Source: an uncultured Bacteroidales bacterium
GTDB taxonomy: Bacteria > Bacteroidota > Bacteroidia > Bacteroidales > JAKIYJ01
Direction: 5' to 3'
Length of the DNA stretch: 63,737 nt
Assembly (NCBI GenBank): GCA_964504265.1
Contig: CAZDEU010000004.1
Coordinates: 1 to 63,737, forward strand
The notes beneath the pieces are model-generated. The model was not told where the DNA came from and made no database searches. It saw nothing but the letters and a program-made list of their open reading frames with translations. Every line of letters begins with the position of its first letter. Position 1 is the first letter of the stretch. The translations under genes were made by a program, and so were the position numbers. Shown here piece after piece: positions 3,844-48,359 of this stretch.

Positions 3844-4389
3844 TTATACAAAAGGACTAATAAAATCATTAAAAAAGGAGGCAATTTTATCTCTTTCAGA
3901 TACTATGGGCTCATCAACGCCCCAATTAATACCTAATGTAGAGTCATTCCAAAAAATAACACCTTCTGAATCTTTATTATAAAGGCTTGTACATTTATAT
4001 GAAAAAATTGTTTCATCTTCCAAAGTAACAAAACCATGAGCAAAGCCTTCTGGAATATAAAACATAGTATGATTTTCTTCAGTAAGTAAATGCATTTCCC
4101 ATTTCCCGTAAGAAGGCGATTTAGCCCTTATATCAACAGCTACATCCATAACAGCTCCTTTAATTACTCTTACTAACTTACCTTGAGCATAAGGAGGTTT
4201 TTGAAAATGAAGCCCTCTTATTACATTCTTTCCTGATTTTGATTGATTATCTTGAATAAAATTTACATCAATACCAGCATTTTTAAAATGAATTGCATTA
4301 TATGATTCAAAAAAATATCCTCTATTGTCAAAAAACACTTTAGGCTTAATTAAAACCAATCCTTCAATTTCTGATTTAATAAATTCCAT
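3844..4389 (-). CDS. rfbC: dTDP-4-dehydrorhamnose 3,5-epimerase
   Basis: D.RGYFFESY, QDNQSKS, RGLHFQ, QGKLVRV, GFAHGF motifs. Confidence 0.95.
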   Translation of the reverse strand: MEFIKSEIEGLVLIKPKVFFDNRGYFFESYNAIHFKNAGIDVNFIQDNQSKSGKNVIRGLHFQKPPYAQGKLVRVIKGAVMDVAVDIRAKSPSYGKWEMHLLTEENHTMFYIPEGFAHGFVTLEDETIFSYKCTSLYNKDSEGVIFWNDSTLGINWGVDEPIVSERDKIASFFNDFISPFV

Positions 4390-4390
4390 A

Positions 4391-6904
4391 TTATTTTACA
4401 TTTCGTTTGCGTTTGCGTTTTGTGGGCAATGGTATTAGCTTAGATAATTTTTTAAAATAAGTATCTTTTGGTTTTGCTCTTTTCTCTTCATCATAATAAC
4501 CATAGCCATAACCGTAGCCATAACCGTAGCCATAGCCATAGCCATAGCCATAGCCATAACCGTAACCGTAACCGTAACCGTAACCTTTTTTAGATTTATA
4601 TGAATAATATCGGCTTTGTACTTCAACACTATTAAGAACAAAAGACAAACGTGAAATATTGCTACCTTCGATAAGATGCTCCATATTTTCGATAAAAAAG
4701 CGTCTTGAATAGTCTGCTTTGTATACATAAACAGGATAATCGGCTAACTGCAACGACCTCATACCGTCAGTAACAATACCAATAGGTGGGTTATCAATAA
4801 TAATATAATTATAGCGTTTTTTTAGAAGTGCGAGAGCCTGTTCCATTTTAATACCAAGTATAAGCTCATAAGGGTTTGGAGGTACTGGACCAGCAGTAAT
4901 AAAATCAAGATTTTCAAGGTTACTATGTCTGATACAATCTTCAACACTATCTTTCCCCGAAAGAATAGTACTCATACCTCTTTTGTTTTCGACACCAAAG
5001 CCAACGTGAATCTTAGGTTTACGTAAGTCAAGGTCAATTACAACAATTTTTTTGTCTGAGAAAGACAATACGCCCGCAAGATTTATAGAAAAGAATGTTT
5101 TCCCTTCACCTGATATGGTAGAGGTTACAGCAATAACTTTAGAGCCAGGATCATCATTAATAAATTGCAAATTAGTTCTAATAGATCTTAAAGATTCAGC
5201 AATAAGGCTTTTAGGATTTTTATCAACAATTAATTGTGAAACAGGAATTCTATCTTTGTATCTAGGAATAACACCGAGAGCAGGTGCGTCTGTATATTTA
5301 GTAATATCATGCAAAGTTGTAATTGTGTTATATAAAAGGTATTTAGCAACAATAAGAACAATTCCCAAAATAAAACCAATGAGAAAACTACCCATCCATA
5401 TAAGTCTTCGATTAGGCGAAATAGGAGTAGATGGGACAGAAGCATATTGCAGAATTACATTTTTTGAAACATAGCCAGCTTTATCAATTAAGTATTTAGC
5501 TTTAGTGTCGACAAGTTGATTATAAAATCTTTCATTTATTGCGTAAATCCTTTTGAGGCTTGAATATTCAATTCTGTTATATTTTTCTGCTTCATAATTT
5601 AGAAAAGTATCATAGTCATTAATTCTTTGTTCAATTTCAATTTTCTTTTTAGCAATATTTTCTTTTAAAGCCTTAATATGTTCAAAAAGAATTTTTTTCT
5701 GAATATTGATTTGATAATCAATAGCTTTTACTTCACCACTATTATGTGTAACAGAATATAAAAGCAATTCTTTTTTTGTTAATAAGTCTCTTAAAGCACC
5801 AATTAAATTACTAAAAGATGATTGGAATTCACTACCTGAAATAATTGCAATAAGTTTATAAATGTCAATATTTTGCTCTGTAGTAATAAACTGTTCAATA
5901 GTTGCGAGATTGCTTTCTTCAACTGCAAGTTTAATAAGTTGGTTATCTAAGTCAGATACTCGACTTGAAATTGTAGGCAAATATAAGTCTTGAGATTCGT
6001 CAATTTCGTAATTTCTCTTGAAGCTTTCAAGATCATTTTCGGCAGCAATCAAATTATCGTAACTTTTAGACATTTGTTTGTCAATAAATTCAAGAGTTTT
6101 ATCTGCACTTTCAGCTTTTTTAGCTACATCATAAGCTAAAAATTCAACAGCTATGGCATTTACAATATCAGCAACTTTTTCTGGATTCCTATCGGTATAG
6201 GCTATAGATATAGTTTTAGCTTCAGGGTTAGCAATATTTATAAATATACGGTCAGCATAATACCCAGCAATATTTGAAGGATCATTCAATATAAAAAAGA
6301 ATGTACTGTTCAAAAGATTGTATGATGTAGCAATACCCTGTCCTGTATTTCTTAAAGACACATTTAAAGTAACTTCTGGAAAAACTGCAGGTTCACTTAT
6401 AGAGAATTCTTGATTCCTAGAAACATCGCCCGGCAAAAAATATGAAATTGCATAAGTAGCTTTTGAAGTAAATTGAATATATATTGGAATTCCATAAATA
6501 TCTTTATTATTAACTTGAGCATCAACAACATAAGGATTTGTTTTGTATTGTTCCTGATTTAGAATAGTACCCTTTCTGTTATATGTAATATCAAGTGGTA
6601 ATTTCGAAAGGGCTTGTTTAATAAAAACAGGAGATCTCATAAGAGCAATTCTTTCATTCAAACCAGCTCCATCATCTTGTAAATCTAGCGAACCGAGTAG
6701 TAGTCTATTTGTTTTATCCTGAACATCTAATTGAACTAAAGCTCTAGTAGAATAAAAAGGATATGTATATCTTAAATAAACAAAAGCTAAAAAAACAGCT
6801 ATTGTAACAAATACAACAAGAAATATTATATTTTTTTTAGCAATATGAAGGAAAAGCCTTATATCTATTTCGTCATTAAAAGCAGAAATCTTTTTTGTCG
6901 GCAT
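4391..6904 (-). CDS. wzc: Polysaccharide co-polymerase / BY-kinase (Wzc-like)
   Basis: Two TM segments flanking a coiled-coil periplasmic domain; Walker A TSTISGEGKT, DLDLRKP, IIIDNPP; C-terminal Tyr cluster. Confidence 0.93.
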   Translation of the reverse strand: MPTKKISAFNDEIDIRLFLHIAKKNIIFLVVFVTIAVFLAFVYLRYTYPFYSTRALVQLDVQDKTNRLLLGSLDLQDDGAGLNERIALMRSPVFIKQALSKLPLDITYNRKGTILNQEQYKTNPYVVDAQVNNKDIYGIPIYIQFTSKATYAISYFLPGDVSRNQEFSISEPAVFPEVTLNVSLRNTGQGIATSYNLLNSTFFFILNDPSNIAGYYADRIFINIANPEAKTISIAYTDRNPEKVADIVNAIAVEFLAYDVAKKAESADKTLEFIDKQMSKSYDNLIAAENDLESFKRNYEIDESQDLYLPTISSRVSDLDNQLIKLAVEESNLATIEQFITTEQNIDIYKLIAIISGSEFQSSFSNLIGALRDLLTKKELLLYSVTHNSGEVKAIDYQINIQKKILFEHIKALKENIAKKKIEIEQRINDYDTFLNYEAEKYNRIEYSSLKRIYAINERFYNQLVDTKAKYLIDKAGYVSKNVILQYASVPSTPISPNRRLIWMGSFLIGFILGIVLIVAKYLLYNTITTLHDITKYTDAPALGVIPRYKDRIPVSQLIVDKNPKSLIAESLRSIRTNLQFINDDPGSKVIAVTSTISGEGKTFFSINLAGVLSFSDKKIVVIDLDLRKPKIHVGFGVENKRGMSTILSGKDSVEDCIRHSNLENLDFITAGPVPPNPYELILGIKMEQALALLKKRYNYIIIDNPPIGIVTDGMRSLQLADYPVYVYKADYSRRFFIENMEHLIEGSNISRLSFVLNSVEVQSRYYSYKSKKGYGYGYGYGYGYGYGYGYGYGYGYGYGYGYYDEEKRAKPKDTYFKKLSKLIPLPTKRKRKRNVK
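4496..4585 (-). repeat. In-frame hexamer repeat, 15 x GG(T/C)TA(T/C), encoding (GY)15
   Basis: Counted directly: 15 contiguous 6-bp units (90 bp), arranged in runs of identical codon pairs. Confidence 0.97.
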
Positions 6905-6909
6905 TTTTA

Positions 6910-7680
6910 TTATTTTATAATATTTAATATTAATATTACAGTAGACAGCAGAGTTAAATAAGGAGTAAGACCTTCCACAATTCTGGAACTAACCCTGTCG
7001 CGTGGTTGTAAATAAATAATATCTTCAGATTGAAGTATTATATTACCTTGCCTTAACCCATCAATAGTAGATAAATCAATTAAATAAACTTCAGGATTAT
7101 TTAGATCGCCTCTTACAAGTTTTATGCGGTGAGTTTTAACATTGTAAGTACCTCCTGTTCTTGCCATTACTTCTAACAAAGTAGTATTTGGTTTTTCAAG
7201 TGTAACTACCTGAGCATTATTACCGCCTTTAAATACTAGGACTTTCATATCCGAAACTGTTAATAAAGCAAAAGGATCCTGATAAAATTCTGAATATTTA
7301 ACTTCTATAAGTTTTTCAGCTTCACGTAATGTCATGCCTTCAACAAATATTCTATCAATAATAGGAAATCGTATTGTACCATCATATTCAACACGAAAAG
7401 TAGTAAGCCTTTGTTGGTAATTAAGATCACCCATTATTCTTACCATAGTTTCGCCGTTATTTGAAAACAAAGTTAGATGTAATCTGTCGTGTTTTGATAT
7501 TCTATATTCATCAGTATATTCAGGATATTCAGGAAATTTAGCATAAGGGTAGCCAGGCTTCATTCTGAGCATCCTTGAAGGGTCAAAAATCTTACAGGAG
7601 CTTAAAATTAATGATGATAGTATTATTATTATAATAAATTTAAATTTCATTATTTTTATTTTGTTGTTAAAAATTTTCAC
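6910..7680 (-). CDS. wza: Polysaccharide export lipoprotein (Wza/Poly_export-SLBB); true start may be Met at 7650
   Basis: Lipobox LILSSC; YRI...D.L, VEYDGTI.FP, GMTL.EA, SLBB-like segment; adjacent to wzc. Confidence 0.88.
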   Translation of the reverse strand: MKIFNNKIKIMKFKFIIIIILSSLILSSCKIFDPSRMLRMKPGYPYAKFPEYPEYTDEYRISKHDRLHLTLFSNNGETMVRIMGDLNYQQRLTTFRVEYDGTIRFPIIDRIFVEGMTLREAEKLIEVKYSEFYQDPFALLTVSDMKVLVFKGGNNAQVVTLEKPNTTLLEVMARTGGTYNVKTHRIKLVRGDLNNPEVYLIDLSTIDGLRQGNIILQSEDIIYLQPRDRVSSRIVEGLTPYLTLLSTVILILNIIK

Positions 7681-30363: not shown

Positions 30364-30915
30364 CTAGTTATAAGCTACTATAACATCAAAAGTTCCTGTA
30401 TAAAGCCCGTAAGGTTGATTGACATCAACAGAAAGAGTAGCACCTACATCAATACTAGATTGACCTAATGAGTTAAGTACGGTACTGCTACCAACATTAG
30501 AAATAAAATTATCAATTAACATTGAATTACTGCCAGAATTGATAATTGCAGATGCAGGAAGAATAATACTGATTGAAGCGTTAGGGTGTCCTGTAATTGA
30601 AAAGTTAGCTGCAGTATGAGTACCGCTGTTTATAAGTGAAACGCCACCTGTACTAGTACGGTTACCATTAGCTGCAACTACAACAGTACCTGTAGAAGAT
30701 GTACCTGCTGCAATATCACCAAAATCTAAATCAGCAATTTTATTTATTTGTATTGGTTGGACAATATTAGCAGTAACGTAAGGAACAGCAACTTGCTGAA
30801 TACCTGGGCTAGGACTTGGTGCGCCACCAGGGCCGCTAGGTCCTTGAGACATGCTTATTTTGGGCAATGCCCAAATAAACAAACCAATTAATATATAAAT
30901 TATATTCCTAAGCAT
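30364..30915 (-). CDS. DUF4402-type pilin-like protein with Pro/Gly-rich N-terminus
   Basis: Signal peptide; TANIVQPIQINKIADLDFGDIAAGT; C-terminal GLYTGTFDVIVAYN. Confidence 0.8.
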   Translation of the reverse strand: MLRNIIYILIGLFIWALPKISMSQGPSGPGGAPSPSPGIQQVAVPYVTANIVQPIQINKIADLDFGDIAAGTSSTGTVVVAANGNRTSTGGVSLINSGTHTAANFSITGHPNASISIILPASAIINSGSNSMLIDNFISNVGSSTVLNSLGQSSIDVGATLSVDVNQPYGLYTGTFDVIVAYN

Positions 30916-30919
30916 TTTT

Positions 30920-33451
30920 CTAATCTGATACTACAAATTTAATAAATAATTTTTGATTTTCCAAATTTATTTTGGAAAAATATACACCTTTTGATAAAAA
31001 ATTTAAATTATTTTTGGCATCATTGGAGCTAAAGACCATTGCTCCTGAGGTTGAGAAGACATCAACCGAAATTAAATTTTCATCTTTTGGTATATTTACT
31101 GTTAAAACATTATCGTAAAAATAAGCTTTAGCAGATACATTATCTGTATTATCCGCAATATTATTGTTTAATGACATATCAATTATCATAAACCTGTTTG
31201 AAATATCTTCAGGATTTGCATAAAAAGAATATGGCTCATTTTTATTAATAATAATATCTTTTATTTTGTCTACTACAACAATATCCCTTTCCGAAATATT
31301 ATCAGTAAATTCTAAAACGTAATTACCTTCTACGTCAACATCAAAATGAATGAAAAGATTATTAATATTACTTAAATCATTAATACAATGTATAGCAGTT
31401 TCGGTATAATCTTTAATTGAATACAACTGAGGAGCTTCACTTATACCAAATAATTTTGCAGCATCGTAGTTATGATCATAAGTGTTAAGAGCATTTTCAT
31501 TAAACATAACAATATGTTCATCGGAATAATTATTTCCATTTACTGTAAGCTTAATATATTGATTATTATTGTTTTTAAAAGAAATTTGTTCGGCAACCTG
31601 AGCTTGCGAATTTATTTGAATATTAGCTGTTTGTGAAGTTGCTTGTACAAAGAACCCTTGCCCTGACGCAATGTAGCGGCTTCCGCCGTTTGTTCCCATA
31701 CTACCATTCCATGTAGCATATTGAAAACCGTTCCAAACATATATTGTGCTACCAATATTGTTTTTAACCCAGCCTTGCGATAAATTCCAGTCAATAGGAG
31801 CAGGGTATGGGTTGCCAATTAGGTTCCAACCTGTCATTCCTGAAGAAAATCCAGTAAGGGTTAAATTAATAGCAGGTAAAGTACCTGAATTTATAATACC
31901 TTTAAAATTAACTGTGGTATCATAATCAGCCCACACTGCATAGCCTTGTCCTATAGGCATAGGTAATACGCCAATTGTAATATAATTACCAAAATCATTT
32001 ATTGATTCATCATAAGGTTTTAACCATAAACCATAAAAGGTATTTGTAATTGCATTTGAAATAGGAGAAGTAACCAAATGCCAGTTATTTTCAGATAAAT
32101 ATCTTTCAACATTTTCAAAGCCATTGCCTAAGCGATTACCTTTAATAATAAGAGTAGCATCGCCTATATCAGAAGATTTTACAGTAATAATACCTTCATT
32201 ATAAAGGTTATTATTAACAATAAGAGCCATTTCTGGATTTATTGTAATTTTAGCACCTAAACTAAGTGAAATATTTTTACATTCAGCAGGATTTGAAAGT
32301 ATTTCATTTATAATTAATTCATTATTATAATAGTTATAATGGGGAATTATAACGCTATCAGCAGAATTTGGAACTAAGTTGATATCCCAATTAGCTGGTT
32401 CGTTCCATTCGCTGTTAACAGAGCCTGTCCACACGCAAGTTTTTTCGACAGGACCTTGCTGCCATCTTAGAATAGGAAATCCATTGTTGACAAGAGGATC
32501 AATTGTCCAGATATTAGAGAAGTCCCAACCTAAATTAGTAAAAGTAGATTGAGTTTGCATTTGCAGTGTATTGATGCCAATTCCTAAGGGTGATGTACTT
32601 TGCATATCGGTGTTCCAAAAAGTGTTGGCAATAATCCCGACGTGTCCTTGTCCTGCAACACCTCCTTTACCTGAAGATGTACCTTGAAAAATTACAGAAG
32701 CAGTATAACAATTTACTATATCGTTATAAGTAGAATCCCAAGCTGAGCCAACAAAACCACCAGTTCCCCAACCACCTTTTACATTACAAACCGAATAGCA
32801 ATTATCGGTATACGAAAATGCAGTTACATAGCCAATTAGTCCACCAGTGCTTCCTCCCCCATCAACACTTCCAGTAGCGAAGCATTTTGAAACTTTAGAA
32901 ATTTTACCCCATTGACCCAATAAAATTCCAACAAGTGAACCAGTATTGCTAGCACCTCTAATGTCAACATTAGTTAAGCCAAGATTTTTTACAGAACCAC
33001 CGAGTGCAATTCTTCCAAAAAACCCTATATTACTTGTTGAAGTTCTTTTAATGAATAAATTTGAAATTATATGTCCTTGCCCGTCATACGAACCAGTAAA
33101 AGGAGTTGTATTATTACCAATAGGTGACCAACCACTACCATTATCCCATGAGGATGTAGTAGAAGCATCAATATCAGTAGTTTGAATAAAATATTTATCC
33201 CATTGGTTTGGATTTTGGCTTAGCCATTGTAGTTCACTTAGTGAAGAAATTTGATAAGGGTCATTAATAGTACCACTGCCAATAGGAATAGTTTTAATAT
33301 CGTTAAAATCTAAATTTCCAAATATCGCTTCTGTATTAGAAGCGTTATTAGGTTTATAATTTGTATAAAAATTATTATTAGAAGAATGTAAAATTGCAGT
33401 TGATAAATAAATTAAGAGAAATAGAAAAATATGTTTATTAACCGATTTCAT
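30920..33451 (-). CDS. T9SS type A cargo protein with GLUG-motif domain
   Basis: GSGT..DPYQI, W.PIG....FTG.YDG.GH, repeated GGL.G/TGSLVG GLUG units, GWNLIGNPYP domain, CTD-like end (SKGVYF.KI). Confidence 0.82.
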   Translation of the reverse strand: MKSVNKHIFLFLLIYLSTAILHSSNNNFYTNYKPNNASNTEAIFGNLDFNDIKTIPIGSGTINDPYQISSLSELQWLSQNPNQWDKYFIQTTDIDASTTSSWDNGSGWSPIGNNTTPFTGSYDGQGHIISNLFIKRTSTSNIGFFGRIALGGSVKNLGLTNVDIRGASNTGSLVGILLGQWGKISKVSKCFATGSVDGGGSTGGLIGYVTAFSYTDNCYSVCNVKGGWGTGGFVGSAWDSTYNDIVNCYTASVIFQGTSSGKGGVAGQGHVGIIANTFWNTDMQSTSPLGIGINTLQMQTQSTFTNLGWDFSNIWTIDPLVNNGFPILRWQQGPVEKTCVWTGSVNSEWNEPANWDINLVPNSADSVIIPHYNYYNNELIINEILSNPAECKNISLSLGAKITINPEMALIVNNNLYNEGIITVKSSDIGDATLIIKGNRLGNGFENVERYLSENNWHLVTSPISNAITNTFYGLWLKPYDESINDFGNYITIGVLPMPIGQGYAVWADYDTTVNFKGIINSGTLPAINLTLTGFSSGMTGWNLIGNPYPAPIDWNLSQGWVKNNIGSTIYVWNGFQYATWNGSMGTNGGSRYIASGQGFFVQATSQTANIQINSQAQVAEQISFKNNNNQYIKLTVNGNNYSDEHIVMFNENALNTYDHNYDAAKLFGISEAPQLYSIKDYTETAIHCINDLSNINNLFIHFDVDVEGNYVLEFTDNISERDIVVVDKIKDIIINKNEPYSFYANPEDISNRFMIIDMSLNNNIADNTDNVSAKAYFYDNVLTVNIPKDENLISVDVFSTSGAMVFSSNDAKNNLNFLSKGVYFSKINLENQKLFIKFVVSD

Positions 33452-33496: not shown

Positions 33497-33543
33497 ACAA
33501 TAAAGATAGATGCAAAAAGGTAATCAGCATCTATCTTTATTGT
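33497..33543. terminator. 17-bp perfect stem-loop immediately 3' of the putative major pilin gene
   Basis: ACAATAAAGATAGATGC / GCATCTATCTTTATTGT with 13-nt loop; terminator or mRNA-stabilising hairpin. Confidence 0.8.
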
Positions 33544-33554
33544 AAAATTAAATT

Positions 33555-34064
33555 TTAATTATAAGCAACAGTTACATCAAAGGTGCCGATGTATAAACCA
33601 GGTGTTTGGTTAGCATCAACATGTAAGTCTGCACCTACGTTTAAATCAGCTTCACCAAGTGCGTCAAGAGTGCCAGCAGCACCAAGGCTTGATACAAAAT
33701 TATCTACTGTCATGTCATCAGAACCTGATGAAATGATAATAGATGTAGGTAAAGCAATTGAAAAAGTAGCATTGGCATACCCTTGAATTTCAAAGTTTGC
33801 TTCGTTACCATCGTTTGTAGCAATAAGAGTAGCGCCACCAGTGCTAGTACGGTTACCTGTTGTAGCATCAATAGTTACTGTTCCAATTGCAGTTCCAGCA
33901 GCTATATCGCCAAAATCAAGATCAACAATTTTGTTAATCTGTAAAGGTTGTACAATGTTAGCTGTTGCATTTGCTGTTTCAGTTGCAGATGATGTTTGAG
34001 CTTTTAATTGATTTGTAAAAGCAATCATTAATAGTCCAGCAAAAATTAAAATTGTTTTTTTCAT
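33555..34064 (-). CDS. DUF4402-type pilin-like protein (putative major subunit)
   Basis: Signal peptide LKA|Q; alternating N-terminal strand ATETANATANIV; LDFGDI; C-terminal GLYIGTFDVTVAYN; own promoter and 3' hairpin. Confidence 0.82.
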   Translation of the reverse strand: MKKTILIFAGLLMIAFTNQLKAQTSSATETANATANIVQPLQINKIVDLDFGDIAAGTAIGTVTIDATTGNRTSTGGATLIATNDGNEANFEIQGYANATFSIALPTSIIISSGSDDMTVDNFVSSLGAAGTLDALGEADLNVGADLHVDANQTPGLYIGTFDVTVAYN

Positions 34065-34115
34065 GATAAATAAAAGTTTAATTAATAATTATTTTGTTTT
34101 GTTTGAACCGTACTT

Positions 34116-34132
34116 TTCAATACTTATGCCAA
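34116..34132 (-). promoter_or_regulatory. Sigma54 -24/-12 promoter (TTGGCATAAGTATTGAA)
   Basis: TGGCA-N6-TTG spacing as in the RpoN consensus (GA rather than GC at -12), 51 nt before the pilin start. Confidence 0.7.
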
Positions 34133-34158
34133 AAAAAATTAAATATTATTTTTCTGAA

Positions 34159-34171
34159 AATCAATATGTTG
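34159..34171 (+). promoter_or_regulatory. IHF-type binding site (AATCAATATGTTG)
   Basis: Exact match to WATCAANNNNTTR, located between the sigma54 promoter and the candidate UAS. Confidence 0.5.
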
Positions 34172-34213
34172 AAAAAATATATATTTATTATGATTTTCAA
34201 TATTTATTCAAAT

Positions 34214-34240
34214 TGGGAAAAATTGTCCCATTATGAAACA
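34214..34240. promoter_or_regulatory. Candidate upstream activator sequence(s)
   Basis: Overlapping TGGGA-N7-TCCCA (34214-34230) and TGT-N11-ACA (34224-34240), about 80-110 bp upstream of the -24 element. Confidence 0.5.
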
Positions 34241-34250
34241 AGACAAATGC

Positions 34251-36833
34251 TTATTTGTCATTTTTTCTTTTGAAAACAAAATTAATATCGCTAATAAAAT
34301 CTCCTTCGTAAGAATCATTAATATAAATTTCCTGATTTATATTAGATGTATAATAATTCAAATTATTTAACTGCGTAATATCTAACGATATATTATGTTT
34401 GCCTGGCGATAACCCCAAATAATTATAATATCCATTCTTATCTGTTAAACATTTATGTACTAAAACTTCTTTATTATTATAAATATTTACAATAATACGG
34501 GGAGCGGGTTTTTGTTTACCTTTTTCATCTTCAATTATTATTTGCCCCTCAATTTCACCCATTGGTTTAACCGGTACATATATTTTTTTAATCTGATTAG
34601 GTTCAGGATAAACTGCTATAGTTTCGTAATCAAGCATCCACGCAATACTTTTAAATCCTGCATTTTTAACAGAAACAATATATTTTGTATATGGTTCTAA
34701 AGAAACAAACCTGTGAACTGTATCATTATTATACATTACTCTAATACCCTTACTAATGCCAACCGATGCGTCTGCTACTAACTCTTCGTCGGGTTGTCTG
34801 ATACTATCGTGATTAATATCAAGAAATACCATTACATCTATAATACCTTTACCAACATTATAACGGTTAGTAGGGCATACAGGCTGAACTGCATTACTAA
34901 ATATTAAACTTCCCGAAAAAGATTGATTGCTGAACCAATTTTTTTTATTCAGACCGAAACTAAATGAACTTCTTAACGCATTAAGGTCTATATAGGCATT
35001 TGCCATAAACATAGTTGACTTTTCAGGAAAATTATGGTTACACGAAATACTGGCAAAAACATTTTTATTAAATCTTTTTTGTGCTTGTAACCTGATGTTA
35101 GATAATGAAGATTTTTTTAAATCAGCAAACGAATAGGCATAAATACTCCACTGATTAGGCAAAAAAACAGACGCATTTAGTCCCGCTGTAATAACATCAA
35201 CATTTTTGAACGACATTGCCGAAATCATCCCAAGATTAAAACGCCGGTATACCAACGATAGATTAGATTCATAAATATGTATTCCACCTACAATAGTGTT
35301 ATTATATCTATATGTATTTTTAAAATATCCTTTAACTTTTTTAAAAGAAAGAGGAATATTAGTGCTTAGCATAGCTTCACATTTGTTTTTAGTTAAAACA
35401 GCATCCTGCTTATGGTCATATAGCTTATAATCACTTTCGATAGAAAAATTATTTTTCATTCTGTACATTAAAGATGCCTGTTGAAAAGCTTTATCAATAT
35501 AAGAATAACTAAAGATAGTATTATTAAAAGGTATAACCGAAGCCCTTACAAAAGGTAAATATCTGCTATACTTATTGCGTTCGAAGGTTTCGTAGCCTGC
35601 ACTAATAGTAGCTCTTCTGTTTATTCCATACGAAAAAATTCCATGTGCAAATCTATAAGCAAGGCTATCAAATGTAAAACCTGAGTATATCTGATATTCT
35701 AGTTTGTTTTTAGGAACAAAAATAAAAGGTATATTAATAACATATTCTTCAATTTTTTCTTCGCCCCAGGGCCCATAGTGTTTAAGAATAATAGTTGAAT
35801 TACCATAAACAAGCGGAATTTCAAATTTATATTGTCCGTTAACATCGGCAGTAGTAAAATCTAACAAAACATTATTAACATAAAGCTCAATTTCCCAGCC
35901 TGGCTTGGATTCCTTTTGCAGAACAAAAGTCCCATACGATTTTCTGAACGTAGTAGGAGTATTCGATAGTTTGGCACCCAACAAGCTAGTCGTAACCTGC
36001 GAAAGAAGAGGAATATTGATAACACCAATATCAACCTGACGCAAATATTTTCTATCATTATCTACAAAATACCAGTTAGCAGCTTGATTATACATTTGAA
36101 TATTTTCAGAATTATCTAATTTGGTTTTTATATTTAGTTCGCCTCCTAATAGCTCTGAGCCTAAATTAGTTTTCATAGAATAAGACGGCATACTTTCTTC
36201 AATTTGTTTCATACTTAAATTCCAATCAACTACAGCACCGCTTAATATTTTATGTTTTCTGTAGAACACAGTATCAACAGGCATATCACCAGTTAAAGAC
36301 ATTAAATTTTCACGAATTTTCTCAATTCTTAATAATTTTACTACAGGTAATTCTACGTCAGAGTGTAAAAATACAGTTAAAGAACGAAAATCAAATTTCA
36401 TTTTAAAACCGAACAAATATTCATAAATAAGAATAGGCATAAACAAATCGTTATATGTTTTAATGTACTGTTTGTTAGTTGCCTGATACATTTTATCTCT
36501 GAAAACAAACTTTTTAGTTATAGTATTAATTTTATAAAAATTTTGTTCGTTGCCAATATATCCCCATACAGAGTCAATTTCCATTGAATGGGCAACAAAT
36601 ATTTTTAACAGGTTAAACATGCCAATAACAGGCATATATACCTGATTATCATAATATATTGCATCAATATTAAAATAACCTAAATTTTCGACCGAAAGCT
36701 TTACATAAAACTCGTCATAATAATCTTCATTATTTTCAAAATATACATTGTTTTGTGCTTTAGAGTTAAATATGCCAATAAAAGAAACTACAGAAAAAAC
36801 TATAAAATAAATACAAATTTTTGCTTCTTTCAT
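34251..36833 (-). CDS. Usher-like outer-membrane protein with C-terminal SdrD-B/carboxypeptidase-regulatory-like domains
   Basis: Signal peptide SKA|Q; 860 aa; beta-strand-rich; plug-like segment ELYVNNVLL...G.YKFEIPL.YG...I.LK.YGPWGE; VFLDIN.D..RQPDE; TD.NGYY...L.PG. Confidence 0.68.
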   Translation of the reverse strand: MKEAKICIYFIVFSVVSFIGIFNSKAQNNVYFENNEDYYDEFYVKLSVENLGYFNIDAIYYDNQVYMPVIGMFNLLKIFVAHSMEIDSVWGYIGNEQNFYKINTITKKFVFRDKMYQATNKQYIKTYNDLFMPILIYEYLFGFKMKFDFRSLTVFLHSDVELPVVKLLRIEKIRENLMSLTGDMPVDTVFYRKHKILSGAVVDWNLSMKQIEESMPSYSMKTNLGSELLGGELNIKTKLDNSENIQMYNQAANWYFVDNDRKYLRQVDIGVINIPLLSQVTTSLLGAKLSNTPTTFRKSYGTFVLQKESKPGWEIELYVNNVLLDFTTADVNGQYKFEIPLVYGNSTIILKHYGPWGEEKIEEYVINIPFIFVPKNKLEYQIYSGFTFDSLAYRFAHGIFSYGINRRATISAGYETFERNKYSRYLPFVRASVIPFNNTIFSYSYIDKAFQQASLMYRMKNNFSIESDYKLYDHKQDAVLTKNKCEAMLSTNIPLSFKKVKGYFKNTYRYNNTIVGGIHIYESNLSLVYRRFNLGMISAMSFKNVDVITAGLNASVFLPNQWSIYAYSFADLKKSSLSNIRLQAQKRFNKNVFASISCNHNFPEKSTMFMANAYIDLNALRSSFSFGLNKKNWFSNQSFSGSLIFSNAVQPVCPTNRYNVGKGIIDVMVFLDINHDSIRQPDEELVADASVGISKGIRVMYNNDTVHRFVSLEPYTKYIVSVKNAGFKSIAWMLDYETIAVYPEPNQIKKIYVPVKPMGEIEGQIIIEDEKGKQKPAPRIIVNIYNNKEVLVHKCLTDKNGYYNYLGLSPGKHNISLDITQLNNLNYYTSNINQEIYINDSYEGDFISDINFVFKRKNDK

Positions 36834-36907
36834 CAGAAATAATTTTTTTATAATTACACCTTATTATATAGCACAATAAAAATTTGTATTAATAATAAAC
36901 AACATAT

Positions 36908-45116: not shown

Positions 45117-47612
45117 TTATTCAATCGACTGGTTTATAGAAAAATGGAATTGACCTTTATTAACATTAGGCAATCCTGGAATTTCGTCAATACCATAACC
45201 ATAATCAAGTCCTAACAAGCCAAACATCGGCAAATTAATTCTGACACCAATACCAAATGACCTTTTAACGTCAAGGGGATTAAATTCAGAAAATTTCAAC
45301 CAGGTGTTACCAGCTTCAATAAATCCAAGAACGTAAATAGTAGCCATTGGGCTAGGCGAAACAAGGTATCTTAATTCCATTGTATATTTGTTAAATATAG
45401 TGCCACCAATATAATTTGAATTACTTCGTGGTGTAACAGAATTATTTGAATAACCTCTTAAACCTATAAGTTCTCTGCCGTCTAATGCAAAACCTGAAAG
45501 TCCATCACCACCTAAATAAAATCTCTCGAAAGGAGCAATACCAAGGTCTTTGTTAAACAATCCGAGAAACCCAAATCTGGCACGTGTATTCATTACCAAT
45601 TTCCCTGCCAATTTTGTATAAAGAGATGTACTAACTTTATATTTGTGATATTCAAGCCATTTAAATTTTTCTTGACTTGATAAAACTGAATAGTCTCTGT
45701 TATTAATAAGCGAATAAGGTAAAGTAGATTGAGCCATAAAAGACACTTCAGAACCTGATCGGGGAAATATAGGAGCATCAATTGAGTTACGTGCAAGTGT
45801 TAGAGTTGCAGAAATATTATTTGAATAACCATCAGAAAAAGCAAAAGTAGAAGAATAATTCTTTAATTGATAATACTGATAGCTTAAATCAGTCATTAAA
45901 GTAAAATAGTCATCGGGCCATTGCAAGCGTTTGCCGTACCCTAAAGCAATGCCAGTAATTCTTATAGAAGCATAATCACTTTCTTCTTTTTTATAGCCGT
46001 TGGTTTGCATAGAATGGTACACCGAAAAACTTAAACTGTTTGGGTTTTTACCGCCGAACCAAGGTTCAACAAAAGCTGCGTTATAAGACTGATAAGTAGG
46101 TCCGTTAGATTGAGCTCTAATACTTATACGTTGCCCATCACCAGAAGGTATTGGGGTCCATCCCCCTTTTTTAAAAATATTACGTCCCGAAAAATTATTA
46201 AACGACAGACCAAGTGTGCCAACAATAGTACCCACTCCCCAGCCTGCAGAGAGTTCAACCTGATCCGAAGATGTTTCTTCAACTATATATTCAAGGTCAA
46301 CAGTACCGTCAACAGGGTTTGGAATAGGGGTAACATCCATTTTTTCTTGATCAAAATATCTGAGTTGCGCAAGTTCGCGTTGAGTTCTTATAATATCGGC
46401 CCTACTAAATAATTGCCCTGGTTTTGTTCTTATTTCACGCATAATAACGTGGTCGCTGGTTTTGGTGTTGCCCTTAATAGTAACCTTGTTAATTGTAGCT
46501 TGCTTGCCTTCATTAATTCTAATTTCAAGATCAATTGAATCGCTGTCAACATTAATTTCAACTGGGTTTACATTAAAAAAAAGATAACCATCATCTAAGT
46601 AAAGAGAGCTTACATCTCTGCCTTCCATATTCATATATAGGTTGGTTTCGAGCAATTTTTGATTATAGATGTCACCTTTTTTAATTCTTAGTACATCGTT
46701 GAGCTCAGAATCTGAATATTTAGTATTGCCAACCCAGGTAATATTTCCGAAATAATATTTTACTCCTTCCGAAATATGTAGATTAACATCAATATGTTTG
46801 CTATCAATAATATAAATACTATCACTAATTATAGCAGCATCTCTGAAGCCTAATTCATTGTAAGCTTCAAGTAACTTATTTTTATCAGATTTATAATCTT
46901 CTTCAATATATCTTGAAGTTTTAAAAAGTCTGTATATTTTTTTTTCTTTAGTATTTTTTAAAGTACGTTTAATTTTTGTTGCTTCAAAGTTATTATTCCC
47001 AAAGATGTTAATTTTACGAACTTTAACACGTGAATTTTTGTCAATAATAATTTCTATGTCTATGCCATCGTTAATAGTATCAGTTGACTGTTTAATATCA
47101 ACCTGAGTATTCAAAAACCCTTTATCAATAAAATATTGTTGCGATTTATCCTTAATTCTGAAGAGCATATTTTTATTAACAGGGTCGCCACGAGTAATGT
47201 TTATTTCGTCTTTGATATTATCAGCTTCAGATTTTCTAATACCTTTAAATGAGAATTTTGACAGACGAGGTCTTTCAGAAACATAAATATCAAGGAAAAT
47301 AGTATTGTTAATAATATTAGAAGCAGAAATTTTTATGTTTTCAAAGAGACCTTGTTTCCAAATATTGTCAACAGCTTTAGAAATTTGCTCGCCGGGTATA
47401 CTAATCATATCGCCAACAGCAAGCCCCGATAACATTATAATTACATTATGGTCGAAGTTTTGTGTTCCATAAACAGTGATACCTCCGATTACATAATCAG
47501 TAGGTTTAGTGTAATCAACAACGGTATTTGGGTCGCTGAGAGAAATCTGTGAATTAGCTTGAGAAACAAGTAACAAAAACAGGCAGTATAAAATAAATCT
47601 TTTAAAATACAT
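45117..47612 (-). CDS. bamA: Outer membrane protein assembly factor BamA
   Basis: POTRA repeats, LSAGWG barrel start, ERFYLGGDG, LIGLRGY, C-terminal GQFHFSINQ. Confidence 0.96.
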   Translation of the reverse strand: MYFKRFILYCLFLLLVSQANSQISLSDPNTVVDYTKPTDYVIGGITVYGTQNFDHNVIIMLSGLAVGDMISIPGEQISKAVDNIWKQGLFENIKISASNIINNTIFLDIYVSERPRLSKFSFKGIRKSEADNIKDEINITRGDPVNKNMLFRIKDKSQQYFIDKGFLNTQVDIKQSTDTINDGIDIEIIIDKNSRVKVRKINIFGNNNFEATKIKRTLKNTKEKKIYRLFKTSRYIEEDYKSDKNKLLEAYNELGFRDAAIISDSIYIIDSKHIDVNLHISEGVKYYFGNITWVGNTKYSDSELNDVLRIKKGDIYNQKLLETNLYMNMEGRDVSSLYLDDGYLFFNVNPVEINVDSDSIDLEIRINEGKQATINKVTIKGNTKTSDHVIMREIRTKPGQLFSRADIIRTQRELAQLRYFDQEKMDVTPIPNPVDGTVDLEYIVEETSSDQVELSAGWGVGTIVGTLGLSFNNFSGRNIFKKGGWTPIPSGDGQRISIRAQSNGPTYQSYNAAFVEPWFGGKNPNSLSFSVYHSMQTNGYKKEESDYASIRITGIALGYGKRLQWPDDYFTLMTDLSYQYYQLKNYSSTFAFSDGYSNNISATLTLARNSIDAPIFPRSGSEVSFMAQSTLPYSLINNRDYSVLSSQEKFKWLEYHKYKVSTSLYTKLAGKLVMNTRARFGFLGLFNKDLGIAPFERFYLGGDGLSGFALDGRELIGLRGYSNNSVTPRSNSNYIGGTIFNKYTMELRYLVSPSPMATIYVLGFIEAGNTWLKFSEFNPLDVKRSFGIGVRINLPMFGLLGLDYGYGIDEIPGLPNVNKGQFHFSINQSIE

Positions 47613-47618
47613 AGAAAG

Positions 47619-48359
47619 CTAAATTAATTGTTCGCTAATCATTCCGAATCGTCTTTCGCGTTTTTGAAATTCAATAATAGCTTTAAAGAAATCATCTTTT
47701 CTGAAGTCGGGCCAGAGTTTTTCAGAAAAATAAAGTTCAGAATAGGCTATTTGCCAAAGTAAAAAGTTGCTGATTCTTTCTTCACCACTAGTTCTGATGA
47801 GTAATTCAGGGAAAGGTATTCCTTTAGAATTGAGATTGTTGGTAACAAGGTCTTCATCAATATCATCAATATTCAATTTATTTTCTTTCACAAGATTAGC
47901 AATTTTTTTAACAGCATCAACAATTTCCCAGCGGGAGCTATAACTGAGAGCCAGAATCAAAGTAAGACCATTATTATCGGAAGTTTTAGACATAGCTTCT
48001 TTAAGGTCATTATAACATTCAGTAGGCAAGTTAAGCAAATCGCCGATTGCAAGTAAACGAATATTATTCTTATTTAGTGTAATAGTTTCATTTTTAATTG
48101 TATTAACAAGAAGACCCATTAAAGCATTAATTTCGTCAGTAGGTCTTTTCCAGTTTTCTTTTGAGAAAGCATATAGTGTAAGATATTTAACACCAATTTC
48201 GGCGGCTGCTTCCGACACTTCACGTACCGAAGTTACCCCGTTTTCATGTCCATAAATACGGCTTTTCCCTTGCTGTTTAGCCCATCTTCCATTACCGTCC
48301 ATAATTATAGCTATGTGTTGAGGCAATTTGTCTTTATCAATATTATCCTTGAATGTCAT
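47619..48359 (-). CDS. uppS: Isoprenyl transferase (undecaprenyl diphosphate synthase)
   Basis: HIAIIMDGNGRWA, YAFSKENWKR, LLIRTSGEERISNFLLWQ. Confidence 0.97.
   Translation of the reverse strand: MTFKDNIDKDKLPQHIAIIMDGNGRWAKQQGKSRIYGHENGVTSVREVSEAAAEIGVKYLTLYAFSKENWKRPTDEINALMGLLVNTIKNETITLNKNNIRLLAIGDLLNLPTECYNDLKEAMSKTSDNNGLTLILALSYSSRWEIVDAVKKIANLVKENKLNIDDIDEDLVTNNLNSKGIPFPELLIRTSGEERISNFLLWQIAYSELYFSEKLWPDFRKDDFFKAIIEFQKRERRFGMISEQLI

What the first reader, a model, noticed from the sequence alone, without database searches (positions are those of the whole stretch)
34065..34250. Textbook sigma54 promoter architecture (-24/-12, IHF, UAS) dedicated to one pilin
Seen within 186 bp: TTGGCATAAGTATTGAA (34116-34132), an exact IHF consensus (34159-34171) flanked by the inverted pair TGAAAATCA/TGATTTTCA, and palindromes at 34214-34240, in the right order and spacing. 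A GAFTGA-containing bEBP heads the locus. Inference: the assembly machinery is expressed separately, while the major subunit is switched on through RpoN by the local activator.
Basis: partly seen in the sequence, partly recalled or inferred. Interest (0 to 1): 0.68.

Follow-up and report, generated by a model that had tools for sequence, protein, structure and literature searches.

The report
Conserved sigma-54 promoter of a Bacteroidota pilin
The gap upstream of a fibre-subunit (DUF4402 "pilin") gene holds a sigma-54-type promoter and an upstream activator site that recur in about 40 related Bacteroidota loci, and metatranscriptomes show the gene as an abundant single-gene mRNA; it is a sound but fairly ordinary regulatory annotation in an unstudied pilus family.

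Summary
The gene and promoter are on the minus strand. The -24/-12 element (TGGCAT-N5-TTGAA, 34131-34116) and the distal site (TTGTCCCATTATGAAACA, 34223-34240) are far beyond chance. 42 of 46 non-identical orthologous pilin upstream regions carry TGGCAY-N5-TTG 35-72 nt before the ATG on the sense strand, 0 on the antisense strand, against 0.18 in shuffles.

GTCCC sites (or TTCG..CGAA sites in a second bEBP subgroup) sit at fixed offsets of about -93 and -114 from the GG. A GAFTGA bEBP heads the locus here and in at least 14 related loci. The IHF match and the 9-nt inverted pair are at chance level.

The -12 element is not textbook: it has A instead of C, and TTGAA is the commonest form in this clade. 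RNA contigs in 19 of 22 metatranscriptome runs examined cover only the pilin ORF, at depth up to 264. The usher gene had almost no depth in the four runs laid over the whole locus. No contig passes 34089, which is 16 nt downstream of the predicted +1 (34105/34104), so the exact start is unconfirmed. rpoN could not be checked.

Verdict: a sigma-54/bEBP promoter dedicated to the pilin gene, confidence about 0.8. It is a new member of a known kind.

The parts
34126..34131 (-). -24 element TGGCAT, with GG at 34130/34129
   Evidence: GG and the A at position 4 are invariant in 42 of 42 aligned orthologous sites, and T precedes GG in 38 of 42.
34116..34120 (-). -12 element TTGAA: G at 34118, and A instead of the canonical C at 34117
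   Evidence: TTG is invariant at exactly 5 nt from TGGCAY in 42 of 42 orthologs. The pentamer is TTGAA in 24, TTGGC in 7 and TTGC[CT] in only 5. TSS-mapped F. psychrophilum sigma-54 promoters also lack C at -12.
34104..34105 (-). Predicted transcription start (C34105/A34104), inferred from -24/-12 geometry
   Evidence: C is conserved in 32 of 42 orthologs and A in 35 of 42 at exactly this offset. It was not confirmed by RNA.
34083..34089 (-). Observed upstream limit of the abundant pilin RNA
   Evidence: Contigs in six RNA runs end at 34083-34089 and none of the 22 runs examined goes further. In X33 a contig of depth 91.8 ends at 34088 and runs straight into Illumina adapter sequence.
34155..34171 (.). 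IHF-consensus match (34159-34171, plus strand) overlapping a loosely conserved element ATTGATTTTCAG (34166-34155, minus strand), centred near -60
   Evidence: The consensus is at chance frequency in the window. In orthologs 14 of 41 regions have a match with at most 1 mismatch against 7.1 expected, several at the same offset of -45 to -41 from GG. Function unknown.
34206..34246 (.). Upstream activator region: TTGTCCCATTATGAAACA (34223-34240, plus strand), palindrome TGGGACAATTTTTCCCA (34230-34214, minus strand), a sense-strand copy TTTCCCAATTTGAAT (34220-34206) and a degenerate TTGTCTTGTTTCA (34246-34234). It is centred about -100 to -135 from the predicted +1.
   Evidence: Pattern: 1 hit against 0.02 expected. 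It matches L088's TTGTCCCATTTTGAAACA at 17 of 18 positions but in the opposite orientation. GTCCC lies at -93/-94 and -113/-115 from GG in related loci.
34194..34212 (-). Degenerate copy of the promoter (TTTGAATAAATATTGAAAA) 80 nt upstream. It lacks GG.
   Evidence: Direct repeat D1, 84% identical. It is homologous to the TTGGCAAATAATTGAT that follows the GTCCC site in L014, L097 and L029.
33555..34064 (-). DUF4402 pilin-like subunit gene (169 aa, with a signal peptide), the regulated gene
   Evidence: Pfam DUF4402, E 9e-34. The AlphaFold2 model has pLDDT 87.5. The best PDB fold matches are chaperone-usher subunits, but weak: E 1.5e-3, TM 0.35-0.45.
33497..33543 (-). 17-bp stem hairpin 12 nt after the pilin stop codon; likely terminator or mRNA stabiliser
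   Evidence: Free energy -22.8 kcal/mol, z-score -7.9. Most RNA contigs stop at or before it; X17 and X20 read through.
38434..39777 (-). bEBP (REC-AAA+-HTH) heading the locus; presumed activator
   Evidence: Sigma54_activat E 4.5e-65, and GAFTGA is present. The phospho-acceptor Asp is replaced by Asn.
34251..38282 (-). Assembly genes: PapD-like chaperone 37455-38282, minor DUF4402 36908-37441, usher-like 860-aa protein 34251-36833
   Evidence: The gene order is conserved in L002, L101, L013, L093, L038, L043, L107 and L040. RNA depth over them is 0-2.

Best explanation
The 186-bp gap between the usher-like gene and the DUF4402 pilin gene is a sigma-54-dependent promoter region that serves the pilin gene alone.

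Sigma-54 holoenzyme would bind TGGCAT(-24)/TTGAA(-12) at 34131-34116 as a closed complex. The NtrC-family bEBP encoded at the head of the locus (38434-39777) would bind the GTCCC-type sites 90-135 bp upstream. It would reach the promoter by looping over an A/T-tract-rich spacer that holds a loosely conserved element near -60. It would then use ATP and its GAFTGA loop to open the promoter, with initiation predicted at C34105/A34104.

The product is a short monocistronic mRNA ended by a strong hairpin (33497-33543). This makes the fibre subunit far more abundant than the chaperone, usher and regulator transcripts.

- **Shown:** the motifs, their conservation, geometry and orientation; the bEBP domains; the pilin-only abundant RNA; no transcription through the intergenic region.
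- **Inferred:** binding of sigma-54 and of this particular bEBP, the exact +1, and the looping or bending step.
For: - **Promoter conservation.** TGGCAY-N5-TTG is found in 34 of 46 non-identical orthologous pilin upstream regions in strict form and 42 of 46 in loose form. All are on the sense strand, 0 on the antisense strand, with shuffle means of 0.016 and 0.18. The site ends 35-72 nt before the ATG.
- **Start-site conservation.** A CA dinucleotide is conserved exactly where sigma-54 geometry puts +1.
- **Upstream sites.** GTCCC sites lie at -93/-94 and -113/-115 from GG. In loci whose bEBP is only distantly like the window's (211-227 bits against 417-535), TTCG-N-CGAA sites take the same two positions. 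The window's site is unique in 63.7 kb, with 0.02 expected.
- **Synteny.** bEBP, chaperone, DUF4402, usher and pilin are syntenic in at least 8 loci besides the window, and a bEBP lies within the held flank in at least 14. The bEBP has PF00158 and GAFTGA.
- **Dedicated promoter.** The scoring-matrix scan gives the window site 21.1 bits against 17.4 for the next best. Hits of 19 bits or more in the loci lie almost only before pilin genes.
- **No housekeeping promoter.** The Bacteroidota sigmaA box TAnnTTTG is absent here and at chance level in orthologs, 3 of 46 against 3.2 expected.
- **RNA.** In 19 of 22 metatranscriptome runs, contigs cover the pilin ORF only, at depths of 3-264. None covers 34090-34500. 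In the four runs laid over the whole locus the usher gene has about 0 depth and the bEBP gene 1-5. DNA runs assemble straight through the region.
- **Precedent.** Sigma-54 promoters are experimentally mapped in Bacteroidota, and the three examples read lack C at -12 (PMC9723704).
Against: - The -12 position is A, not the canonical C, though this is the majority state in the clade.
- The RNA boundary (34083-34089, with an adapter-flanked end at 34087/34088 in X33) lies 16-17 nt downstream of the predicted +1. No indexed RNA run holds 31-mers from 34066-34140. Either the 5' end is trimmed or processed, or the libraries lose it, or initiation is not where sigma-54 geometry predicts.
- rpoN was not seen: it is absent from the window, and whole-genome scans were not possible.
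- The window's best GTCCC site is inverted and offset by about half a helical turn relative to most orthologs.
- The bEBP lacks its phospho-acceptor Asp, so how it is switched on is unclear.
- No binding or genetic data exist.
Confidence: 0.8

Rival explanations
1. A sigma-70-type promoter drives the pilin gene: TTGAAA (34120-34115) as a -35 box, an 18-nt spacer, and CAAAAT (34096-34091) as a -10 box, with initiation at about 34084-34086. On this reading the TGGCA element is incidental or is an operator.
For: The consensus scan lists this pair at 9 of 12 matches. Its predicted start coincides with the observed RNA boundary of 34083-34089.
Against: Such matches are at chance level in this region: 8 found against 7.6 expected. 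Bacteroidota sigmaA recognises TTTG/TAnnTTTG, not TTGACA/TATAAT (PMC9723704 supplement), and no TAnnTTTG is present. Nothing resembling a -10 box is conserved 18 nt after TTGAA in orthologs. The invariant TGGCA at fixed spacing and the co-located bEBP would be left unexplained.
Confidence: 0.07
2. The TGGCAY-N5-TTG element is the operator of another DNA-binding protein or the target of another alternative sigma factor, not of sigma-54. The neighbouring bEBP would then act elsewhere.
For: The canonical -12 C is missing in 37 of 42 sites. Extra TGGCA copies occur at about -57, -22/-11 and +22 in many orthologs, as if a TGGCA-binding factor were involved. The RNA end does not fit the sigma-54 +1.
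Against: GG-N10-G spacing, strand and distance to the ATG are exactly those of sigma-54 promoters. The bEBP gene is syntenic with the pilin locus, and upstream sites change together with the bEBP subfamily. No other high-scoring site exists in the loci for the bEBP to serve. Mapped Bacteroidota sigma-54 promoters also have a non-C base at -12.
Confidence: 0.08
3. There is no promoter here. The pilin mRNA is a stable processing product of a long operon transcript started upstream of the bEBP or chaperone, as with papBA to papA.
For: The 5' end at 34088 lies in an AU-rich stretch that could be an endonuclease site. The 3' hairpin could stabilise a processed fragment.
Against: There is no RNA coverage of 34090-34500 in any of the 22 runs, including runs with pilin depths of 92 and 264. 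In the four runs laid over the whole locus, usher depth was about 0. Orphan pilin copies far from any assembly operon keep the same promoter motif (for example L005, L097, L029).
Confidence: 0.03

Closest known systems
Sigma-54/PilR-dependent type IV pilin promoters (pilA of Pseudomonas aeruginosa, Myxococcus xanthus, Geobacter); from my own knowledge, type IV pili named as sigma-54 targets in PMC12316311
   Same: The major fibre subunit gene has its own -24/-12 promoter. It is activated by an NtrC-family bEBP bound to repeated upstream sites, and the assembly genes are transcribed separately. A very abundant monocistronic subunit mRNA results.
   Different: The fibre here is not a type IV pilin. 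It is a DUF4402 subunit with a chaperone-usher-like fold and partners. The activator is encoded inside the pilus locus. In the window it lacks the phospho-acceptor Asp and an adjacent kinase. The -12 element is TTGAA.
Experimentally mapped sigma-54 (SM4) promoters of Flavobacterium psychrophilum, e.g. remFG-sprCDBF (PMC9723704)
   Same: Same phylum. They have a TGGCAC-like -24 element with a G 11 nt after the GG. The -12 position is not C in the three examples read (TTGT, TTGT, AGT). Their targets are cell-surface and envelope functions.
   Different: The target genes differ (gliding adhesin and chaperones). No upstream activator sites or linked bEBP are described for them in the text I read. 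Those promoters have mapped TSSs and mutagenesis; this one does not.
Archaic (sigma-clade) chaperone-usher pili: Csu of Acinetobacter, CupE of Pseudomonas (PMC9452303, PMC10104325)
   Same: A small Ig-like subunit, a PapD-like chaperone, a large outer-membrane protein and several minor subunits. Some sources call DUF4402 proteins 'spore coat protein U-like'.
   Different: To my knowledge Csu and CupE are controlled by non-sigma-54 two-component systems and are transcribed as operons led by the major subunit. Here the major subunit lies after the usher with its own sigma-54 promoter. The usher-like protein has no Pfam Usher match, and a T9SS-sorted 843-aa protein sits in the locus.

Membership tests
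sigma-54-dependent promoter | TGGCAC-like -24 element with an invariant GG | tested here: met
   TGGCAT at 34131-34126. GG is invariant in 42 of 42 orthologous sites.
sigma-54-dependent promoter | -12 element TTGC(W), with GC exactly 10 nt after GG | tested here: inconclusive
   Spacing and TTG are met (42 of 42). The C is replaced by A here, and by A or G in 37 of 42 orthologs. Three TSS-mapped F. psychrophilum sigma-54 promoters also lack the C.
sigma-54-dependent promoter | A cognate bEBP with an AAA+ sigma-54 interaction domain and the GAFTGA loop | tested here: met
   PF00158 at E 4.5e-65, GFERGAFTGA present. The gene is syntenic in many related loci.
sigma-54-dependent promoter | Upstream activator sites about 80-150 bp from the promoter | tested here: met
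   GTCCC-type site at 34223-34240, with 0.02 expected. Offsets of -93 and -114 are conserved, and the site type co-varies with the bEBP subgroup. Binding itself was not tested.
sigma-54-dependent promoter | Transcription start 11-13 nt downstream of the -12 GC | tested here: inconclusive
   The predicted start is 34105/34104, with a conserved CA there. RNA contigs stop at 34083-34089 and none goes beyond. Only assembled contigs were available, not raw 5' ends.
sigma-54-dependent promoter | rpoN present in the genome, and expression dependent on it | not testable with these tools
   No rpoN was found among the window ORFs scanned.
NtrC-family response-regulator bEBP | Receiver domain with a phospho-acceptor Asp | tested here: not met
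   The receiver match is below Pfam's cut-off (26.6 bits against 30.2). The conserved CLD is CIN in the window protein, an Asp-to-Asn change. Ser82 and Lys104 are kept.
NtrC-family response-regulator bEBP | C-terminal helix-turn-helix DNA-binding domain | tested here: inconclusive
   HTH_50 scores E 0.0023, below the cut-off. The C-terminal GIGKSTIYRM motif is nearly invariant among homologues.
IHF-assisted sigma-54 promoter | An IHF site between the upstream sites and the promoter, beyond chance, and IHF encoded in the genome | tested here: inconclusive
   There is an exact WATCAANNNNTTR at 34159-34171, but the pattern occurs 16 times against 13.3 expected in the window. Orthologs show modest enrichment: 14 of 41 with at most 1 mismatch against 7.1 expected. 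An IHF gene and its Bacteroidota binding specificity were not testable.
Chaperone-usher pilus (archaic type) | A PapD-like periplasmic chaperone, an usher, and an Ig-like subunit | tested here: inconclusive
   PapD_N scores E 0.0011, below the cut-off. The 860-aa protein has no Usher-family hit in Pfam, NCBIfam or PDB sequences. The subunit model's best PDB matches are Caf1, PapG pilin domain, FimA, CfaB and CsuE, at weak scores.
Bacteroidota sigmaA (housekeeping) promoter | A -7 box TAnnTTTG, with or without a -33 TTTG | tested here: not met
   None in 34065-34250. It occurs in 3 of 46 orthologs against 3.2 expected in shuffles.

The most novel reading that the evidence does not exclude
DUF4402 fibres may be a widespread Bacteroidota chaperone-usher-like pilus whose major subunit is under a clade-specific sigma-54 module. 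That module has a non-canonical -12 element (TTGAA), two activator sites at fixed helical phase, and phased extra TGGCA copies. The window's organism would run it with a bEBP that has lost its phosphorylation site, so that activation is independent of a kinase or constitutive. This would make the fibre one of the most abundant transcripts of this lineage in anaerobic digesters. The non-C -12 base could be what allows very high output.
Probability: 0.25. Interest if true: 0.6.

Novelty: new member of a known kind. Interest (0 to 1): 0.45.

Why it matters
DUF4402 proteins are unstudied: no paper in the searched library mentions the family. Yet this one is transcribed strongly in many digester and wastewater metatranscriptomes.

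A conserved, sharply defined sigma-54/bEBP module gives a first regulatory handle on these fibres. It predicts the activator's binding motifs: TGTCCC-N5-GRAAC in one subgroup and TTCGAAAACGAA in another. It shows that in this clade the -12 C of sigma-54 promoters is dispensable, so scoring matrices built from Proteobacteria will miss such promoters. It also points to a cultured relative, Fluviicola taffensis, in which the predictions can be tested.

It does not overturn anything. Sigma-54 control of surface appendages is a well-known theme.

Tried and rejected
- A close-relative scan of the genome collection with the pilin alone found nothing. The alignment-based scans worked.
- I first took two other gene clusters in the window for chaperone-usher loci. 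Pfam shows they are OmpH/BamA/UppS and RmlC/Wzz/Wza.
- rpoN was not found among the window ORFs scanned, and the rest of the genome could not be examined.
- No Rfam family matches the gap or the leader.
- Neither the pilin nor the usher-like protein has a sequence match in the PDB.
- The PLoS One sigma-54 supplement labelled as the seed matrix turned out to hold protein motifs, so it gave no -12 base frequencies.
- I tried to test the 5'-end offset in an ortholog (L031). The contigs were low-depth, diverged and covered the ORF only, so this was uninformative.
- Extra RNA runs from a study that holds the DNA contained no pilin RNA.
- A second sigma-54 promoter 22 nt downstream, using the GG at 34109/34108, was considered as an explanation for the RNA end. 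I rejected it because it has no TTG or G at -13, and orthologs with TGGCA at +22 also lack any -12 element.

Full report
**What is there.** The finding lies in the 186-bp gap (34065-34250) between two minus-strand genes. Upstream is an 860-aa usher-like ORF (34251-36833). Downstream is a 169-aa ORF (33555-34064) that is a DUF4402 protein with a signal peptide (Pfam E 9e-34).

The locus, all on the minus strand, reads as follows:
- a bEBP at 38434-39777 (Sigma54_activat E 4.5e-65, with GAFTGA)
- a weak PapD-like chaperone at 37455-38282
- a minor DUF4402 at 36908-37441
- the usher-like protein
- the pilin
- an 843-aa protein with a T9SS sorting domain at 30920-33451
- a third DUF4402 at 30364-30915

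An AlphaFold2 model of the pilin is confident (pLDDT 87.5). Its best PDB fold matches are almost all chaperone-usher subunits (Caf1, PapG pilin domain, HdaB, FimA, CfaB, CsuE), though at weak scores (E 1.5e-3, TM 0.35-0.45). 'Pilin' is therefore reasonable but not proven.

**Checking the observation.**
- Within the window alone the -24/-12 match is only mildly unusual: TGGCAY-N5-TTGM has 2 hits against 0.64 expected.
- The IHF consensus is at chance, with 16 hits against 13.3 expected.
- A perfect 9-nt inverted repeat is expected in 43% of shuffles of this 19% G+C stretch.
- The distal GC-containing site stands out: TGTCCC-N5-GRNAC has one hit in 63.7 kb against 0.02 expected.
- The -12 element is TTGA, not the canonical TTGC.

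**Comparative evidence.** I collected 156 related loci from metagenomes and from MAGs or genomes, using an alignment of the closest pilins. I called DUF4402 ORFs in them with a profile.
- Among the 46 close orthologs with non-identical upstream regions, 42 carry [TCA]GG[CT][AG][CT]-N5-[TC]TG within 100 nt of the ATG on the sense strand. None carries it on the antisense strand, and the shuffle mean is 0.18. For the strict form TGGCAY-N5-TTG the figures are 34, 0 and 0.016.
- These orthologs are 45-72% identical to the window's pilin. They come from Fluviicola, Saprospiraceae, Lentimicrobiaceae and various Bacteroidales.
- GG, the A of TGGCA and the TTG are invariant. The -12 pentamer is TTGAA in 24, TTGGC in 7 and TTGC[CT] in only 5, so the window's TTGAA is the majority state.
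- A CA dinucleotide is conserved (32 and 35 of 42) exactly where sigma-54 geometry places +1. In the window this is C34105/A34104.
- The Bacteroidota housekeeping box TAnnTTTG is absent here and at chance in orthologs.
- A scoring matrix built from the sites gives the window's promoter 21.1 bits, with the next best at 17.4. Hits of 19 bits or more in the 3 Mb of loci fall almost only before pilin genes, including truncated and tandem copies. None lies before the bEBP, chaperone or usher genes.

**Upstream sites.** With sequences anchored on the GG, one set of loci has GTCCC at -93/-94 and again at -113/-115, two helical turns apart. This set includes L002, L009, L012, L005, L014, L018 and L021. 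A second set (Fluviicola and Saprospiraceae loci) has TTCG-N-CGAA at the same two positions.

Where the bEBP gene is on the held fragment, the first set has bEBPs much like the window's (417-535 bits) and the second has distant ones (211-227 bits). This co-variation is what one expects if the linked bEBP binds these sites.

The window belongs to the first set, but its arrangement is rearranged. Its best copy, TTGTCCCATTATGAAACA (34223-34240), matches 17 of 18 positions of the site in its closest relative L088 but lies on the opposite strand. A one-mismatch sense copy (TTTCCCAATTTGAAT, 34220-34206) and a degenerate one flank it.

IHF-like matches are modestly enriched: 14 of 41 regions against 7.1 expected. 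I cannot say whether a bending protein binds there. The spacer is full of A/T tracts.

**Expression.** The pilin gene is present in many anaerobic-digester, bioreactor and wastewater metatranscriptomes. I laid the assembled contigs of 22 RNA runs on the region.
- 19 runs have contigs over the pilin ORF, at depths of 3 to 264. None has anything between 34090 and 34500 except one spurious 24-nt match.
- In the four runs laid over the whole locus, the usher gene has almost no depth, and the bEBP and T9SS-protein genes have depths of 1-5.
- DNA runs assemble straight through the gap, so the break is not an assembly artefact.
- A 17-bp hairpin (free energy -22.8 kcal/mol, z-score -7.9) lies 12 nt after the stop codon.

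This supports a strong promoter inside the gap and a monocistronic mRNA, and it rules out read-through from the assembly genes.

The 5' limit, however, is 34083-34089 in six runs. In X33 a 92-fold contig ends at 34088 directly on Illumina adapter sequence, which indicates a real fragment end. That is 16-17 nt downstream of the predicted +1, and no indexed RNA run holds 31-mers from 34066-34140. Three explanations are possible:
- Loss of the extreme 5' end during RNase H/Pol I second-strand synthesis. From my own knowledge, 8-20 nt is a known loss.
- Processing in the AU-rich leader.
- A start that is not the sigma-54 one.

A sigma-70-like pair (TTGAAA-18-CAAAAT) would predict a start at about 34085. 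It is a chance-level match, it is not conserved, and it is not the kind of promoter Bacteroidota sigmaA uses.

**Comparison with what is known.** Sigma-54 promoters with typical -24/-12 elements have been mapped and mutated in Flavobacterium psychrophilum (PMC9723704). The three promoter sequences I could read in its supplement have TTGT, TTGT and AGT at -12. A non-C -12 base therefore has precedent in the phylum, whereas the general consensus is TGGCAC-N5-7-TTGCT (PMC12316311).

Functionally the closest analogue is the PilR/sigma-54-controlled type IV pilin gene. There too the subunit has its own enhancer-dependent promoter and the machinery is transcribed apart. Here the fibre is of the chaperone-usher kind. 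No paper in the searched library mentions DUF4402. I file this as a new member of a known kind.

**Open points.**
- rpoN could not be sought. The presence of an intact GAFTGA bEBP is indirect evidence for it.
- The window's bEBP has Asn in place of the phospho-acceptor Asp and no neighbouring kinase, whereas L002 has a kinase next to its bEBP. How it is activated is therefore unknown.
- Binding of sigma-54 and of the bEBP, and the role of the -60 element, are inferences.

I put the sigma-54/bEBP explanation at about 0.8.

Noticed in passing
window 38434-39777 (-), residues ~50-57: The bEBP's receiver domain has Asn where homologues have the phospho-acceptor Asp (CLD becomes CIN), and its acidic pocket is altered (VEDD becomes LDHD). 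The upstream neighbour is a sulfatase gene, not a histidine kinase, whereas L002 has a PAS/HisKA kinase there. The pilin is nevertheless highly transcribed in situ.
   Followed up: partly
window 34083-34089: The abundant pilin RNA ends here in six independent runs, adapter-flanked at 34087/34088 in X33. This is 16-17 nt downstream of the sigma-54-predicted +1. It may be a processing site in the AU-rich leader or a library artefact.
   Followed up: partly
window 34194-34212 (-): A degenerate copy of the promoter (TTTGAATAAATATTGAAAA, 84% identical, no GG) lies 80 nt upstream. In L014, L097 and L029 the homologous position reads TTGGCAAATAATTGAT right after the GTCCC site, as if an upstream sigma-54-like element had decayed in the window.
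   Followed up: partly
related loci, positions relative to the GG (e.g. L005, L013, L022, L093, L034, L031): Extra TGGCAY copies recur at about -57 (or -67), -22 or -11, and +22 from the promoter's GG. These are roughly multiples of 11 bp, and some form TGCCA-N5-TGGCA palindromes (L011, L015). The window lacks them. Their function is unknown.
   Followed up: no
whole window: The canonical pattern TGG-N9-TTGCW has 0 matches on either strand against 4.4 expected from shuffles. This may reflect avoidance of spurious sigma-54 sites.
   Followed up: no
L093 (8001-8501 and 13098-13598), L107/L040 (~8915), L013 (~8941); many loci truncated at a pilin gene (L045-L050, L055, L112-L118): Related genomes carry several pilin paralogues, often in tandem or at contig ends. 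Each has its own TGGCAY-N5-TTG promoter, and orphan copies far from any assembly operon keep it too. One MAG (CAISZK01) has at least eight copies.
   Followed up: partly
window 30364-33451 (-); L001 710-3849: Downstream of the pilin sits an ~850-aa protein, with a T9SS C-terminal sorting domain in the window, followed 4 nt later by another DUF4402 gene. An ORF of similar size followed by a DUF4402 gene is also seen in L001. A T9SS cargo inside a chaperone-usher-like locus is unusual.
   Followed up: no
window 33497-33543 (-): A perfect 17-bp stem hairpin (free energy -22.8 kcal/mol, z-score -7.9) follows the pilin stop codon without a following T-run. It is likely a terminator or stabiliser. 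Two RNA runs read through it into the next gene.
   Followed up: partly
L077, L079, L086, L087, L131, L143, L145 (Sphingomonadales and soil loci), ~150 nt upstream of DUF4402 genes: Distant DUF4402 genes of Alphaproteobacteria share a conserved YGRCRTAAGTCTTGCW element about 150 nt upstream (e.g. CGGCGTAAGTCTTGCT). It may be a canonical sigma-54 promoter with TTGC. If so, sigma-54 control would be a family-wide trait.
   Followed up: no
window 43825-48359 and 3844-7680: By ORF sizes these clusters look like further pilus loci, but they are not. The first is OmpH-OmpH-BamA-UppS. The second is RmlC, a Wzz/tyrosine-kinase protein and a Wza-type polysaccharide export protein.
   Followed up: yes
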